A stretch of DNA of 64,000 nt from a virus. The translations under genes and the position numbers were made by a program. Of the stretch, positions 2,860 through 64,000 are shown in pieces (positions within the stretch are counted from its first letter, which is position 1; each line of letters starts with the position of its first letter). The notes under the pieces were generated by a model, which had not been told where the DNA came from, did no database searches, and saw only the letters and a program-made list of their open reading frames with translations. The stretch is taken from the IMG/VR virus record IMGVR_UViG_3300025840_003418, positions 63,600-127,599 of that record, one strand, 5' to 3'.

Positions 2860-3854
2860 ATTTTTACCTTAGGAATCTTTGAGTCAGCACTGCTTACACA
2901 AGTATCAGTAACACATTTAGATGGTGCCTTAAACAGCGTAAAACCGTCTTGTAGTGTGCCTAACGGTTCTTCACTACAACTATAACTCCGCTTTACTTCA
3001 TTACCTCTTATAACGCATCCTTGATATCCTGCATTACAAGTCCATCCTTTAAACTTATTAAAACCAAAGGCATTGAATCGCTCGGCTTGATCAACATTAT
3101 ATATGTTACCTGCATCATCTTGTAATTCTACTTGGTATAAAGGAATTATTTTTTTATATCTATCTGGGATTCTTTGGGGGAATCCTGTTTGCATCTGTCT
3201 AAGTTGGCTTGGTGTATATCCATGTACCACGAAGGAGGCAGTGGGGTCGGATTGTGGTTTGAGAGTGACATTAATACCTCGGGCGGCAAATCGTTCACAG
3301 CGTTCGTAAAGTTCCTCAAACCTTTCTGGCACCATGACTTGATTGATTGTAACAAATACTTCATTATCAGCTAATAAGAGACACTTATCTCCAAACTCCT
3401 GTTCATTAGCAAACTCAGCGTGGTAACTCGCTGTGATGCTTTTTCTTTGCAGTGTGTCTGTGTTAAGTATCCACTTGTTCCACCATTTCACACCTGGTGA
3501 TAGATTTGTGGTCATATGAATACTTTGGTATTCGGGTGCTGTATCCCTACAGTAATGATCTATGATCTCCCCAAAGTATTTATACGCTGTAGGCTCGCCT
3601 CCGCTGAACGAAAAATGAAAATCTGTAAAACCGTTATCTCTTGCCTGTGCCTTGATACTATCTAGTGTGTGTAAGTACAATTCTAGATCTTGGTGGTCAG
3701 GGGTACTAGATCTAGCGTATGGCCAGCAATAACTGCATGAATAATTACAAAATCTAGCCAGTATCCAAGAAACTGTGAAAAGATGGCTCTTTAGGAGTGT
3801 CTTCTGTCCAAATTGGGTAATTTTATCCCAGGGTATTGTTTGAAAATTGTTCAT
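2856..3854 (-). CDS. Radical SAM protein with C-terminal Cys-rich (twitch/SPASM-like) domain
   Basis: CNYSCSYC (CxxxCxxC), SGGEP, TTN, C-terminal CNAG...SC...C...C. Start moved to ATG 3854 (MNNFQ). Confidence 0.85.
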   Translation of the reverse strand: MNNFQTIPWDKITQFGQKTLLKSHLFTVSWILARFCNYSCSYCWPYARSSTPDHQDLELYLHTLDSIKAQARDNGFTDFHFSFSGGEPTAYKYFGEIIDHYCRDTAPEYQSIHMTTNLSPGVKWWNKWILNTDTLQRKSITASYHAEFANEQEFGDKCLLLADNEVFVTINQVMVPERFEELYERCERFAARGINVTLKPQSDPTASFVVHGYTPSQLRQMQTGFPQRIPDRYKKIIPLYQVELQDDAGNIYNVDQAERFNAFGFNKFKGWTCNAGYQGCVIRGNEVKRSYSCSEEPLGTLQDGFTLFKAPSKCVTDTCVSSADSKIPKVKI

Positions 3855-60570: not shown

Positions 60571-62339
60571 TAAAGATTAAGGATTTAACAGTAAAAAACT
60601 TTATGAGTGTAGGTAATGTAAGTCAAGGTGTTGACTTTGATCAACAAAGCCTTACACTCGTGCTCGGCGAAAACTTAGATCAAGGAGGTGACGATTCGGG
60701 TTCCCGTAACGGTACAGGTAAAACAACAATCATTAATGCATTGTCATACGCTTTATATGGCCAGGCTCTGACCAACATTAAGAGAAACAACCTTATTAAT
60801 AAAACTAATTCAAAAGGTATGCTAGTTACACTTAGTTTTGAAAAGAATAATATAAATTATAGAATTGAACGTGGACGTTCTCCTAATATTCTTAAGTTTT
60901 ATGTAGATAATACCGAACAAGTTGAAGAAGACGAGTCACAAGGCGATAGTCGCAAAACACAAGAAAGTATACAAGAACTATTGGGCATGAGTCATGATAT
61001 GTTTAAACATATTTTAGCACTTAATACATATTCTGAACCATTTTTAAGTATGCGAGCTAATGATCAACGTGCTATTATCGAACAGTTATTAGGTATTACA
61101 TTACTAAGTGAAAAAGCCGATTCGTTAAAAGACGAAATTAAGCGTACTAAAGAGGCTATTACAGAAGAAACATTTAAATTAAACGCAATCGAAAGTGCTA
61201 ATCAAAAAATACAAACTACAATTGACAGTTTAGGTAAAAATCAACGTGCATGGGTTGCAAAACGCAGTTCTGACGAAGAAAAACTAGTAACTGCTATCGA
61301 AGAATTAGAAAAACTAGACATTGATGCTGAATTAGATGCACACGAAAAATTAGCAAACTGGACAGAACATAATAATTCTATTTTGGCTCTTAGAAAAGAA
61401 TTAAGCACACTAGAACCTGCACTAATACGTGCTGACAAAAGTGTAACCAAAGCAGAAAAAGATATTGCAGAACTAGAAGATGCTACTTGTTATACTTGTG
61501 GACAAGAACTTCATGCAGACAAAAAAGCAGAGATTGCAGAACGCAAAGGAAAAGAACTAGAAGATGCTATTGCTTATCAAACAGAAATTACTGGAAAAGT
61601 AAAAGATGTTGCACTTGCTCTTAAAGAAATTGGTGATATTAATGGTCGTCCTACTACATTCTACGAAACTGCAAAAGAAGCATACGAACATAGAAACAAT
61701 GTTAAAAACTTGCAAAATGCATTAGTAAACAAACAAGCAGAAGTTGATCCGTATGAAGTACAAATTAACGAACTAACAAGTACTGCACTACAAGATCTTG
61801 ACTGGAGTATCATAAACAATCTTACAGAGTTTAAAGAGCATCAAGAGTTTCTATTAAAATTATTAACTAACAAAGATTCGTTTATACGTAAGAAAATTAT
61901 TGATCAGAATTTAGCATATCTCAACAATAGGCTAACTTATTACTTAGATGTATTAGGATTACCACATCAAGTACAATTTTTAAACGACTTAAATGTTGAA
62001 ATTACACAACTAGGACAAGATCTAGACTTTGATAATTTGTCAAGAGGTGAACGCAATAGACTTATACTCGGACTATCGTTTGCATTCCGTGATGTTTGGG
62101 AAAGTTTATACCAAGGAATTAATTTATTGTTCATTGACGAACTTATCGATTCAGGAATGGATAGTGCAGGTGTTGAAAACTCAATCAGTGTACTTAAAAA
62201 AATGACTAGAGAACGCAAGAAAAACATTTTCCTCATATCTCACAAAGATGAACTAGTTGGAAGGGTAAACAATGTATTAAAGGTTGTAAAAGAAAACGGA
62301 TTTACTTCTTATGCAAACGATTTGGAGATTGTAGAATGA
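60567..62339 (+). CDS. gp46: Recombination ATPase subunit, gp46/Rad50/SbcC-like
   Basis: KNFMS, Walker A NGTGKTT, coiled coil with CYTC zinc hook, signature LSRGE, Walker B LFIDE, ISH. Confidence 0.93.
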   Translation: MIKIKDLTVKNFMSVGNVSQGVDFDQQSLTLVLGENLDQGGDDSGSRNGTGKTTIINALSYALYGQALTNIKRNNLINKTNSKGMLVTLSFEKNNINYRIERGRSPNILKFYVDNTEQVEEDESQGDSRKTQESIQELLGMSHDMFKHILALNTYSEPFLSMRANDQRAIIEQLLGITLLSEKADSLKDEIKRTKEAITEETFKLNAIESANQKIQTTIDSLGKNQRAWVAKRSSDEEKLVTAIEELEKLDIDAELDAHEKLANWTEHNNSILALRKELSTLEPALIRADKSVTKAEKDIAELEDATCYTCGQELHADKKAEIAERKGKELEDAIAYQTEITGKVKDVALALKEIGDINGRPTTFYETAKEAYEHRNNVKNLQNALVNKQAEVDPYEVQINELTSTALQDLDWSIINNLTEFKEHQEFLLKLLTNKDSFIRKKIIDQNLAYLNNRLTYYLDVLGLPHQVQFLNDLNVEITQLGQDLDFDNLSRGERNRLILGLSFAFRDVWESLYQGINLLFIDELIDSGMDSAGVENSISVLKKMTRERKKNIFLISHKDELVGRVNNVLKVVKENGFTSYANDLEIVE

Positions 62340-63175
62340 TTAAAATTGGTGTAAGAGGTAGTAAATTAGCACTTGCATATGCCGATATTGTTGTTAACAG
62401 AATAAAAACAAACTTTAAACCAATTGTAGATATACAAATTGTTCCTATTAAAACAGATGGCGACATTTATGCTAAAAAAAATATAGCAGAAATAGGCGGA
62501 AAGGGTGTTTTTGTCACAAAAATCGAACAAGAGTTGTTAGCAGGCAATATTGATTTAGCAGTTCATAGTTTTAAAGATCTTCCTAAGGACTTAGACGATA
62601 GAACAGAAATTCGTGCAGTAATGCCAAGGCATGATCCGCGTGATGCTGTTATCGGAAATCTAGTCGACGGTTGTAAAATAGGCACAAGTAGTCCTAGACG
62701 TAAATTACAACTTGCAAAAATGTTTCCTAACAGTGAAATACTTCCAATAAGAGGTAATATTGACACAAGAATACAAAAAGTTCGTGACAACGAGTACGAT
62801 GCTACAATTTTAGCAATGGCAGGACTTGATACAATGAACTTAGGTCACGAAATAAACAAGATACTAGCATTAGAAGAATTAGTACCAGCTGTAGGACAAG
62901 GAGTTATTGCTGTACAGTCATTAAAAAATCAAAATACAGTATTATTAGAGAAAATTAATCACTTAGAAACATATCAGTGTGCAATGGCAGAACGTAACAT
63001 GCTTCAAATGGTTGACGGTGATTGTGATACCGCTATTGGATCAATTACAAGTATCATTGGCGATATAATTTCGCTCGAAGCATACAATTACGAAAATAAT
63101 AAATCTGTAAAAATGCAATCTAAAGCAATTGATTATCTTAATCTAGGCGAATTAGCTGGTAATAGAATAAAATGA
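62336..63175 (+). CDS. hemC: Hydroxymethylbilane synthase (porphobilinogen deaminase)
   Basis: IGVRGSKLAL, GGKGVF, DLAVHSFKDLP, GTSSPRR, RGNIDTR, PAVGQG, AER...GDC (cofactor-binding Cys). Confidence 0.93.
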   Translation: MIKIGVRGSKLALAYADIVVNRIKTNFKPIVDIQIVPIKTDGDIYAKKNIAEIGGKGVFVTKIEQELLAGNIDLAVHSFKDLPKDLDDRTEIRAVMPRHDPRDAVIGNLVDGCKIGTSSPRRKLQLAKMFPNSEILPIRGNIDTRIQKVRDNEYDATILAMAGLDTMNLGHEINKILALEELVPAVGQGVIAVQSLKNQNTVLLEKINHLETYQCAMAERNMLQMVDGDCDTAIGSITSIIGDIISLEAYNYENNKSVKMQSKAIDYLNLGELAGNRIK

Positions 63176-63393
63176 ACAACGAAGACGACTTACATACACA
63201 ATTAGTTCAAGCATACTTAGAATATTTTAAGGCAAATGAATGGTGGGAAAGGAAAAACTCAGTTAGAGCATATTCCGCAGTTCAAAAGGCAACAAGAGAA
63301 ATACGTAGAATAGCAAGAGAACGAAATACTGAAATAAAAGAGATACAAAAAGACTATAAAATCAAGTTTAAAGGCAAACAATACAAGGATTGA
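63172..63393 (+). CDS. Small helical hypothetical protein
   Basis: 73-aa ORF joined to hemC by an ATGA overlap. Basic C-terminus. Confidence 0.65.
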   Translation: MNNEDDLHTQLVQAYLEYFKANEWWERKNSVRAYSAVQKATREIRRIARERNTEIKEIQKDYKIKFKGKQYKD

Positions 63394-63403
63394 TAAACAT
63401 TGT

Positions 63404-63838
63404 ATGAATTGGACATATAATGGCGACGAAGTTACAGAAATACCAGATGAGTATGAAGGTTTTGTTTACATTATTACTAATTTAACAGATGATCGCAAAT
63501 ACATAGGCAAAAAACTAGCAAAATTTAAAACTACTAAGCCACCCTTAAAAGGCAAAAAAAATAAAAGACGCGGATACAAAGAATCAGACTGGAAAGACTA
63601 TTGGGGATCTTCAGATAAACTATTAGCAGACGTAGAAAAATTAGGCAAAGACAAGTTCACAAGAGAAATACTATATTTTTGTAAAAGCAGAGGCGAAATG
63701 TCTTACTTAGAGGCAAGAGAACAGTTTAGTAGGCGAGTATTAGAGACGGACGAGTATTATAACGGTATAATAAACGTGCGTGTAGGCGGATCAAACATAC
63801 TTAGAGAAAATTTAAAGGCACATCAGGACACTATTTAA
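63404..63838 (+). CDS. Stand-alone GIY-YIG nuclease domain protein (Seg-like)
   Basis: GFVYIITN...KYIGKK, YWGSS, F.REIL, candidate catalytic Glu in LEAREQ, YYN. No C-terminal DNA-binding domain. Confidence 0.8.
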   Translation: MNWTYNGDEVTEIPDEYEGFVYIITNLTDDRKYIGKKLAKFKTTKPPLKGKKNKRRGYKESDWKDYWGSSDKLLADVEKLGKDKFTREILYFCKSRGEMSYLEAREQFSRRVLETDEYYNGIINVRVGGSNILRENLKAHQDTI

Positions 63839-63840
63839 AA

Positions 63841-64000
63841 GCCAAAATCCAGCCGAGGTAATGCTCGTCGCCGGTGGAGTGGTAAAGTCCAACAGGCTGT
63901 ATGCTACGAAAACCCCTTAGCACTAGGAACGAAGCGGGGGATAGCGCATTTTGCGTGATGTCGACGTAGGTTGGGAAAGGTCAGAGCCCAGTAGCAAAGT
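63841..64000 (+). ncRNA. Putative structured non-coding RNA, 3' truncated by the window end
   Basis: 86/160 G+C (54%, hand count) in an otherwise AT-rich window. No ORF in the track. Several nested complementary segments. Family unassigned; strand inferred from the upstream gene. Confidence 0.55.

What the first reader, a model, noticed from the sequence alone, without database searches (positions are those of the whole stretch)
63404..64000. Minimal GIY-YIG nuclease followed at once by a GC-rich structured non-coding element: candidate nuclease-RNA system
Seen: the 144-aa protein is only a GIY-YIG catalytic domain, with a very basic insert (KKLAKFKTTKPPLKGKKNKRRG) and no DNA-recognition domain. 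Two nt after its stop the sequence shifts to 54% GC. It contains CGAG/CTCG (63854-57/63864-67), TCCA/TGGA (63848-51/63875-78), an alternative CAGCC/GGCTG (63850-54/63895-99), and a long-range TGCTAC/GTAGCA helix (63902-07/63991-96). That helix encloses CCCC/GGGG (63913-16/63936-40), a GCGCA-ttt-TGCGT hairpin (63944-56) and TGGG/CCCA (63972-75/63987-90), which suggests a multibranch fold. Known: Seg- and I-TevI-type homing endonucleases need extra DNA-binding domains, and compact nucleases such as IscB and TnpB get specificity from an adjacent ncRNA. Inference: this may be an undescribed ribonucleoprotein (RNA-guided or RNA-regulated nuclease) or a large phage ncRNA or ribozyme co-transcribed with the nuclease. 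A structured origin or packaging site cut by the nuclease is an alternative. The element runs off the window, so its length is unknown.
Basis: partly seen in the sequence, partly recalled or inferred. Interest (0 to 1): 0.85.

Follow-up and report, generated by a model that had tools for sequence, protein, structure and literature searches.

The report
Cut-off twin-box phage RNA beside nuclease
The GC-rich stretch after the small nuclease gene is the first half of a real, intricately folded non-coding RNA shared by many uncultured marine giant phages, but the nuclease looks like its usual neighbour and not its partner, and the RNA's job is still unknown.

Summary
Three of them (TGCTAC/GTAGCA, CCCC/GGGG, the GCGCA hairpin) show compensatory changes in relatives.

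The window ends at the contig end. Only model positions 1-124 of 229 of the RNA core are present (117 bits). The RNA starts inside the last codons of the nuclease gene: GGAC 63826-29 pairs with GUCC 63887-90.

Full-length relatives are about 280-650 nt and pseudoknotted. They carry one 7-letter word twice, identical in 107 of 109 parsed sequences.

No Rfam family matches this copy. In 9 of 17 sibling loci the 5' domain is the orphan motif Polynucleobacter-1, RF01718.

The guide-RNA or RNP reading is not supported:
- A 72.6% identical nuclease sits in phage Melnitz without the RNA.
- One locus has a PD-(D/E)XK nuclease gene in place of the GIY-YIG gene.
- Stand-alone proteins of about 145 aa of this family are common in phages.

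Function is inferred only. I favour a stand-alone RNA that acts through its two identical words.

This scan found the same RNA family before on other genomes.

The parts
63404..63838 (+). 144-aa stand-alone GIY-YIG nuclease gene (SegE-like, catalytic domain only)
   Evidence: ORF. Pfam PF19835 at E 3.9e-35 covers the full profile. PHROG 447 (148-position profile) at E 3.9e-38. One copy in each of 4 records or genomes searched.
63826..63829 (+). GGAC, 5' strand of the first RNA helix, inside the last codons of the nuclease ORF; pairs with GUCC 63887-63890
   Evidence: GGAC/GUCC in 24 loci (9 word combinations) and GAAC/GUUC in 6 loci (2 combinations). This is a change on both sides.
63848..63878 (+). 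5' hairpin of the 'type A' 5' domain (TCCA/TGGA closing CGAG/CTCG)
   Evidence: Sequence. Only 5 near-identical variants were seen, so there is no covariation for or against. By eye, type B relatives show a covarying helix at the same place (CACC/GGUG, CUCC/GGAG, CGCU/AGCG).
63887..64000 (+). Core of the RNA, model positions 1-124 of 229, cut at the 3' end by the contig end
   Evidence: cmsearch with R1: 117.4 bits, E 2.8e-27, flagged as cut off at 3'. Window end equals contig end.
63902..63996 (+). Long-range helix TGCTAC 63902-07 / GTAGCA 63991-96 enclosing a multibranch junction
   Evidence: helices 1-2: 8 pairs, 7 of them with changes on both sides (for example CG:36 with UA:27).
63913..63940 (+). 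Helix CCCCTTAGC / GCGGGGG with conserved loop ACTAGGAACGAA
   Evidence: helix 3: 7 pairs, 5 with changes on both sides (CG:27 with UA:27 at two pairs).
63944..63956 (+). Variable hairpin (GCGCA-ttt-TGCGT); 13 to about 110 nt in relatives
   Evidence: Searches show the length variation. In one search, helix 4, both base pairs change on both sides.
63966..63971 (+). GTAGGT, 5' strand of a proposed pseudoknot whose partner ACCTAC lies beyond the contig end
   Evidence: helix 5: 100% paired in 65 relatives, but 5 of 6 pairs never vary, so it is allowed and not proven.
63972..63990 (+). Hairpin TGGG/CCCA with invariant loop holding GGTCAG (63979-84), which is proposed to pair with CTGACY beyond the contig end
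   Evidence: helices 6 and 7: 99.6% and 100% paired, almost invariant, with only G-U to G-C changes.

Best explanation
The element is the 5' half of a stand-alone, pseudoknotted non-coding RNA (the 'twin-box' RNA) that is conserved at one locus in a lineage of uncultured marine T4-like giant phages.

It is read on the + strand. It begins inside the last codons of the nuclease gene. In full-length relatives it ends at a stable hairpin just after the second copy of a 7-letter word.

The GIY-YIG gene is its habitual upstream neighbour. It is probably co-transcribed with the RNA but is not a functional partner.

Shown: the RNA fold, the strand, the truncation, the modular 5' domains and the twin words in relatives. 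The independence of the nuclease family from the RNA is also shown.

Inferred: the RNA works by base pairing of its two identical single-stranded words (each preceded by UGAC..CUC or UGAC..UCU) to one complementary strand. The simplest strand that would change automatically with both words is the template DNA of the RNA's own gene. That would make an R-loop or primer-like grip, which I put at about 0.3 within this reading. A trans RNA or a co-evolving protein are the alternatives.
For: RNA and strand.
- 94.9% of cells pair, against 30-41% for slid controls, and 15 pairs have double changes.
- Many G-U pairs would be A-C on the other strand (for example GU:54, UG:50, GU:47).
- The window matches model positions 1-124 of 229 at 117 bits and is cut at the 3' end.

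Start inside the ORF.
- GGAC/GUCC changes to GAAC/GUUC.
- In type C relatives the 5' strand CCAACA overlaps the stop codon and pairs about 130 nt downstream. All six pairs are 98-100% standard pairs, and three of them change on both sides.

Twin words.
- They are identical in 107 of 109 parsed unique sequences, in 9 variants.
- They are identical in 61 of 62 further sequences, adding 6 variants. That search preferred identical pairs.
- No internal complement was found in most sequences.

Independence from the nuclease.
- Melnitz has a 72.6% identical nuclease and no RNA. It nests inside the RNA-linked clade in a quick tree.
- L278 has a PDDEXK_15 gene instead.
- 784 cultured phage records hold relatives of the protein.
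- The RNA core is more conserved than the protein: a 30-nt exact core occurs in 119 or more loci, while protein identity runs from 54 to 97%.
Against: - Nuclease and RNA are adjacent in 108 of 108 and 40 of 41 loci with enough upstream DNA. The RNA overlaps the ORF end, so a functional tie is not excluded.
- Transcription is not shown. The stretch is present only as contigs of RNA libraries, which can hold DNA.
- The twin words lie beyond the contig end in this window. They are inferred from relatives such as L011 and L012, which are 95.7% identical over the 162 nt.
- The pseudoknots are invariant and therefore unproven.
- For the R-loop idea there is only indirect support. The cumulative GC-skew local minimum near 220 kb, against the RNA at 224.7 kb in a 335-kb contig, coincides with a gene-strand switch and is not the global minimum.
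- An elaborately conserved fold and a terminator-like hairpin right after the second word fit a discrete stable RNA as well as, or better than, a primer.
Confidence: 0.55

Rival explanations
1. Replication-origin primer RNA. The transcript folds, one word of the RNA pairs with the template DNA at the other word, and the persistent hybrid primes DNA synthesis in the AT-rich stretch downstream, in the manner of ColE1 RNA II or the T4 oriF/oriG R-loops.
For: - The two words are strictly identical, with no wobble-type differences. The only 2 of 109 mismatches are A versus T at the last letter.
- This is what RNA:DNA pairing with the RNA's own template predicts, without a third co-evolving partner.
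- No enriched complement occurs elsewhere in a 335-kb relative genome.
- The locus sits at the end of the gp47-gp46 recombination operon, next to baseplate hub genes. From my own recall of the T4 map, oriF lies in uvsY beside genes 25 and 26.
- There is a local cumulative GC-skew minimum within 5 kb.
Against: - The GC-skew turn equals a gene-strand switch and is only a local minimum.
- A strong hairpin follows the second word directly, which suggests release of a discrete RNA.
- T4 origins, as I recall them, need no ornate RNA.
- There are no replication data.
Confidence: 0.2
2. Nuclease-RNA system. The RNA guides, activates or restrains the GIY-YIG nuclease.
For: - Adjacency in 148 of 149 loci with enough upstream DNA.
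- The RNA overlaps the ORF end.
- The protein has no DNA-binding domain.
- Both are single copy in each genome checked.
Against: - Melnitz, S-SRM01 and phiM12 carry the same ~140-aa protein without the RNA.
- L278 has the RNA behind a PD-(D/E)XK gene.
- There is no variable terminal guide segment. The only co-varying words are internal and duplicated.
- All co-occurrence is within one syntenic lineage.
Confidence: 0.07
3. The nuclease is a fixed free-standing homing endonuclease whose cleavage site lies in the ultra-conserved RNA gene of nuclease-less phages. Adjacency would then reflect homing biology, and the RNA would have an unrelated function.
For: - The family is annotated and profiled as Seg-type.
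- The protein tree puts the Melnitz copy (another phage family) inside this clade, which suggests transfer.
- The same slot holds a different nuclease gene in L278, beside an HNH gene and a gp46 that appears to carry an insertion.
- A 30-nt invariant core would be a typical target.
Against: - The gene is nearly fixed (148 of 149) and single copy. That is unusual for a homing gene, and no empty site with the RNA was found in this lineage.
- The L278 replacement is RusA-like. It would fit a resident recombination nuclease of the gp46/47 operon just as well.
Confidence: 0.25
4. Cis-acting untranslated element: a 3' UTR stabiliser of the nuclease mRNA, or a leader of the next late gene.
For: - It lies between two genes on the same strand.
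- The table of Weinberg et al. 2010 lists the related motif RF01718 with 'y' under what I take to be the cis-regulatory column (only the table row was seen).
Against: - It is far more conserved than either neighbour, and it persists with a different upstream gene.
- By eye, a hairpin and a T4-type late promoter TATAAATA separate it from the downstream gene in several relatives.
- 280-650 nt with pseudoknots is excessive for a stabiliser.
- Rfam now types RF01718 as 'Gene; sRNA'.
Confidence: 0.1

Closest known systems
Polynucleobacter-1 RNA motif (Rfam RF01718; Weinberg et al. 2010, PMC2864571, only one table row seen)
   Same: In 9 of 17 sibling loci the stretch directly behind the nuclease gene matches RF01718 at 59-118 bits (cut-off 37). 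The twin-word module follows it. By eye, its conserved ACUAUCC..GGACGAAG resembles the loop ACUAGGAACGAAG of this window. Its function is unknown.
   Different: This window and types A-D do not match RF01718 at E up to 10. RF01718 covers only about 141 nt of the 5' domain, and not the twin-word core or the helices present here.
T4 Seg proteins and the I-TevI catalytic domain (free-standing and intron-encoded GIY-YIG homing endonucleases)
   Same: The catalytic domain family is the same (PF19835), and PHROG 'homing endonuclease' families also match. The setting is a T4-like phage.
   Different: There is no C-terminal DNA-binding domain. The gene is single copy and nearly fixed at one locus. No solved structure matches by sequence.
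OMEGA systems (IscB with HEARO omega-RNA, TnpB with omega-RNA)
   Same: A compact nuclease gene abuts and overlaps a large structured RNA.
   Different: The nuclease fold is different. There is no terminal guide and no Rfam HEARO match. The nuclease occurs without the RNA, and the RNA occurs without this nuclease.
ColE1 RNA II primer (own knowledge)
   Same: It is a structured RNA in which an upstream RNA word is identical to a downstream word of the same strand, so the RNA can pair with the template there.
   Different: No origin function is shown. The words are 7 nt of mixed sequence and not G runs. A terminator-like hairpin follows.
GOLLD and ROOL large phage-associated RNAs (own knowledge; both are in Rfam)
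   Same: They are large, ornate RNAs of unknown function carried by phages.
   Different: There is no sequence or structure match. This RNA is not next to tRNA genes.

Membership tests
SegE_GIY-YIG (Pfam PF19835) | Profile match above the curated cut-off over the whole domain | tested here: met
   121.2 bits against a cut-off of 25; residues 3-123 on profile positions 1-123 of 123.
Seg-type free-standing homing endonuclease | A separate DNA-binding domain besides the catalytic domain | tested here: not met
   The protein has 144 aa, 121 of them in the catalytic profile. The best PHROG is a 148-position stand-alone family.
Seg-type free-standing homing endonuclease | Patchy presence among close relatives, or signs of mobility | tested here: inconclusive
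   The gene is present in 108 of 108 and 40 of 41 loci and is single copy. The Melnitz copy nests inside the clade (quick tree, supports 85-94).
Seg-type free-standing homing endonuclease | Cleaves the nuclease-less allele near its own gene | not testable with these tools
   Needs an enzyme assay.
Polynucleobacter-1 RNA (RF01718) | Covariance-model score of at least 37 bits | tested here: not met
   No RF01718 hit at E up to 10 in window 62000-64000, nor in full-length types A, C and D, nor in 5 records. The score is met in 9 of 17 sibling loci.
OMEGA-type guide RNA (HEARO, TnpB omega-RNA) | Obligate pairing with its nuclease and a variable guide at one end | tested here: not met
   The nuclease occurs without the RNA and the RNA behind another nuclease. 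The variable words are internal and duplicated. There is no Rfam match.
Group I or group II intron | Interrupts a gene, and matches the intron models | tested here: not met
   Flanking ORFs are complete, with their own stop and start. No intron family matches at E up to 10.
tRNA or tmRNA | ARAGORN detection | tested here: not met
   0 genes in the window and in 10 loci.
ColE1-type primer RNA | An RNA word able to pair with the template DNA further downstream | tested here: inconclusive
   The twin identical words are present in relatives but lie beyond the contig end here. Hybrid formation and priming are not testable with these tools.

The most novel reading that the evidence does not exclude
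The twin-box RNA is a new class of structured origin RNA for giant T4-like phages. Its fold positions one 7-nt word so that it invades the template DNA at the identical second word. This locks an R-loop that primes replication. The adjacent structure-specific nuclease (GIY-YIG, or RusA-like in L278) processes that hybrid or the resulting fork.
Probability: 0.15. Interest if true: 0.85.

Novelty: new variant of a known kind. Interest (0 to 1): 0.55.

Why it matters
If the RNA is functional, as the covariation implies, it is one of the largest and most conserved non-coding RNAs of marine phages. It is present in hundreds of uncultured giant-phage contigs and has no assigned role.

Its two words stay identical through at least 15 variants. 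That is a rare evolutionary signature: identity where ordinary helices show complementarity. It points to pairing with a strand outside the RNA.

It also shows that the orphan Rfam motif Polynucleobacter-1 is only one interchangeable 5' domain of a much larger phage RNA.

For this window the practical message is that the copy is cut in half by the contig end. The attractive 'RNA-guided GIY-YIG nuclease' idea should not be carried forward without biochemical evidence.

Tried and rejected
Rfam. Four permissive scans and two gathering-threshold scans (the window and types A, C and D) gave only chance-level hits such as snoRNAs, xrRNA and SorX, all below their cut-offs.

Single-sequence folding gave no signal. 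ARAGORN found no tRNA or tmRNA.

Hand comparisons with RNase P-like, tmRNA-like and group I-like arrangements were made from recalled consensus features and were dropped. No model matched, and the flanking genes are intact.

Coding readings of the word were considered: sense codon plus UGA/UAA, or AUG/GUG/AUA.
- All variants fit RNRURAN.
- The frames upstream are not conserved, as read by hand from the sequences.
- The word does not copy the nuclease start region.
- The distance between the words (54-68 nt) is not a multiple of three.

A complement of the word inside the RNA was absent in most sequences. A 10-letter complement elsewhere in a 335-kb relative genome occurred 2-3 times, as in shuffles.

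Expression.
- 24 runs were listed, 22 of them on record as RNA.
- Contigs of 4 RNA libraries from 4 studies cover the nuclease gene and the RNA of relative L024.
- These are contigs and may contain DNA, and they recruit relatives. I therefore claim no transcript, ends or level.
- The one joint near the 3' domain (3700 to 3765, one contig, side 31) does not link the two words.

Cultured phages. There was no blastn match of the RNA in 50,697 phage records. R1 and Rfam found nothing credible in the regions of Atu_ph07 and PA5oct I fetched. The one R1 hit (18 bits) lies inside a coding gene.

GC skew is ambiguous.

Locus L230 comes from a 32-kb phage record with terminal repeats. It shows a similar hairpin-UGAC layout with an 8-letter twin word and no nuclease, but R1 does not match it. 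I do not count it as a member.

Literature. Five full-text searches listed no paper on this RNA. Only listings and abstracts were seen. Supplements of Weinberg et al. 2010, which may describe RF01718 contexts, were not available.

Full report
What is in the window.

The last ORF, 63404-63838 (+), encodes a 144-aa protein. It matches the SegE-type GIY-YIG catalytic domain over the whole Pfam profile (E 3.9e-35). Its best PHROG is a family of stand-alone proteins with a 148-position profile.

From the stop codon on, GC rises to 0.51, against 0.29-0.43 upstream.

The window end is the end of a 127,599-bp IMG/VR record. The element is therefore cut by the assembly, and no further sequence of this phage is held.

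Is it more than chance?

Folding one full-length relative gives no signal. Relatives settle the question.
- The nuclease protein has 575 confirmed relatives among 596 candidate stretches in viral contigs.
- The 162 nt behind the stop are conserved behind most of the 80 relatives kept, at up to 95.7% over the full length (L011, L012).

I aligned 65 core sequences and wrote down a structure.
- 94.9% of 2922 cells form standard pairs, against 30-41% when the 3' partners are slid by 1-3 columns.
- 15 of 47 pairs change on both sides.
- 0 of 500 shuffles reach the observed covariation score.

TGGG/CCCA and two proposed pseudoknots (GTAGGT with ACCTAC; loop GGTCAG with CTGACY) are fully compatible but almost invariant, so they remain unproven. 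The many G-U pairs fix the strand as +.

A covariance model built from this alignment (R1) matches window 63887-64000 to model positions 1-124 of 229. The score is 117 bits, and the match is flagged as cut at the 3' end.

Where the RNA starts.
- In the commonest relatives (type C), the 5' strand CCAACA overlaps the nuclease stop codon. It pairs about 130 nt downstream, at 98-100% standard pairs over six pairs, three of which change on both sides.
- In the window's type, GGAC (63826-29, inside the last codons) pairs with GUCC (63887-90). Relatives with GAAC have GUUC.
- The RNA therefore overlaps the gene end. Either it is made from the same transcript or its promoter lies inside the gene.

What the full RNA looks like.

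Relatives run from about 280 to about 650 nt. They share a 3' core but carry interchangeable 5' domains (types A, B, C and D by eye).

Beyond the point where this window stops, the core holds two imperfect direct repeats of about 22-29 nt, as seen by eye. Each repeat ends in the same 7-letter word.
- The two words are identical in 107 of 109 parsed unique sequences (4 of 113 could not be parsed), across 9 variants.
- They are identical in 61 of 62 sequences of an independent sample, which adds 6 variants. That search preferred identical pairs.
- All variants fit RNRURAN.

A hairpin, often with a UUCG loop, follows the second word. In several relatives a T4-type late promoter and a GNRA-capped hairpin precede the next gene (read by eye).

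Known families.

No Rfam family reaches even E 10 on this window or on full-length types A, C and D. No tRNA or tmRNA is found.

I followed a lead from earlier notes of this scan and tested Polynucleobacter-1 (RF01718).
- It does not match five records of types A-D.
- It matches 9 of 17 more distant sibling loci at 59-118 bits. In each case it lies directly behind the nuclease gene and in front of a twin-word module.
- RF01718 is thus one of several alternative 5' domains of this RNA family. The window's copy is not a member of RF01718, and the shared core is not catalogued.
- Five literature searches listed nothing on it.

The nuclease question.

In favour of a link: every locus with enough upstream DNA has the GIY-YIG gene next to the RNA. 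That is 108 of 108 (the other 11 loci have at most 363 nt upstream) and 40 of 41. Gene and RNA overlap, and the gene is single copy in the four genomes checked.

Against a link:
- All these loci share one gene order: gp46, sometimes hemC, a 73-aa gene, the nuclease, the RNA, then baseplate hub genes on the other strand. Co-occurrence may therefore be plain linkage within one lineage.
- The baseplate hub protein places this lineage near Atu_ph07, PA5oct and Rak2-like giant phages.
- Cultured phage Melnitz has a 72.6% identical protein behind a ribonucleotide reductase gene. It is followed by a 148-nt spacer, and R1 finds no match anywhere in the genome.
- In a quick tree rooted at its midpoint, with phiM12 and S-SRM01 as the deepest branches, Melnitz sits inside the RNA-linked clade. 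Supports are 85-94 and the careful search did not finish.
- S-SRM01 and phiM12 have the same small protein with 88 and 29 nt downstream.
- In locus L278 the RNA (RF01718 domain plus twin words ACATGAA) follows a PDDEXK_15/RusA-like nuclease gene.

Either the slot attracts selfish nuclease genes that target the ultra-conserved RNA gene, or it holds a resident recombination nuclease of the gp46/47 operon. In both cases the RNA does not need this protein, and the protein family does not need the RNA.

Mechanism.

The fold, its strict conservation and its discrete ends point to a stand-alone RNA. The twin words are the one clue to how it works.

Identity maintained through many variants means both words meet the same complementary strand. 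No such strand is found inside the RNA, or enriched elsewhere in a 335-kb relative genome. The template DNA of the RNA's own gene would covary for free.

Support for this is thin. The locus lies within 5 kb of a local cumulative GC-skew minimum, but that minimum coincides with a strand switch. The operon context is recombination and replication.

I therefore commit to 'stand-alone RNA acting through its twin words' at 0.55. Within that, pairing with its own template is the likeliest partner (about 0.3). I list the origin-primer reading, the homing-target reading, the RNP reading and the UTR reading as rivals.

Expression.

Contigs of four RNA libraries from four studies hold the nuclease gene and the RNA of a relative. 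Contigs cannot show transcription, so this is recorded only under things tried.

Verdict.
- The object is a truncated copy of a real and unusual phage RNA family. This scan has already met it on other genomes.
- Its relation to the orphan motif RF01718 makes it a new variant of a known kind.
- Interest is moderate to high for the RNA family. It is lower for this cut copy, and low for the nuclease-guide idea.

Noticed in passing
window 62336-63175: An intact porphobilinogen deaminase (hemC) gene sits between gp46 and the 73-aa gene (Pfam E 6.2e-66). It is present in only some relatives at this locus.
   Followed up: partly
loci L002, L020, L030, L036, L038, L042, L047, L059, L080 and the window end: Many contigs stop inside or within about 150 nt after the nuclease gene, as this window's contig does. 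The conserved RNA core between variable flanks seems to break metagenome assemblies.
   Followed up: no
L278:8213-12774: This locus is crowded with possible selfish elements. The gp46-like ORF has 975 aa, against 590 aa in the window, which suggests an inserted segment such as an intein. An HNH/NUMOD3 endonuclease gene and a PDDEXK_15/RusA-like gene stand where the GIY-YIG gene usually is.
   Followed up: partly
L230:1540-1900 (a 32,451-bp record with terminal repeats): A small, apparently complete phage has the same GNRA-capped leader hairpin. Upstream of it lies a hairpin-UGAC layout flanked by an 8-letter word present twice, with no nuclease gene nearby. R1 does not match it.
   Followed up: partly
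relatives, 100-250 nt after the second word (e.g. L012:3760-3800): A conserved hairpin of the form stem-GA-GC-GNRA-GC-GAA-stem, with compensatory stem changes seen by eye (AGUUU/AAACU versus GUGUU/AACAC), precedes the next gene. It may be the leader of a late transcript.
   Followed up: partly
L210, L211 (two contigs of 335 kb and 153 kb in one genome bin): A genome bin titled Candidatus Neomarinimicrobiota holds two contigs that each carry the nuclease gene and the RNA core. These are probably giant-phage contigs binned with a bacterium.
   Followed up: no
L309:4528-6042 (Pseudomonas phage PA5oct): About 1.5 kb between the baseplate hub region and a RusA-like resolvase gene holds only four tiny annotated ORFs and a 660-nt unannotated gap. 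R1 and Rfam find nothing there.
   Followed up: partly
window 63371-63410: By eye, AUACAA...UUGUAU could form a hairpin that encloses the nuclease start codon, which would limit its translation. It was not tested in relatives.
   Followed up: no
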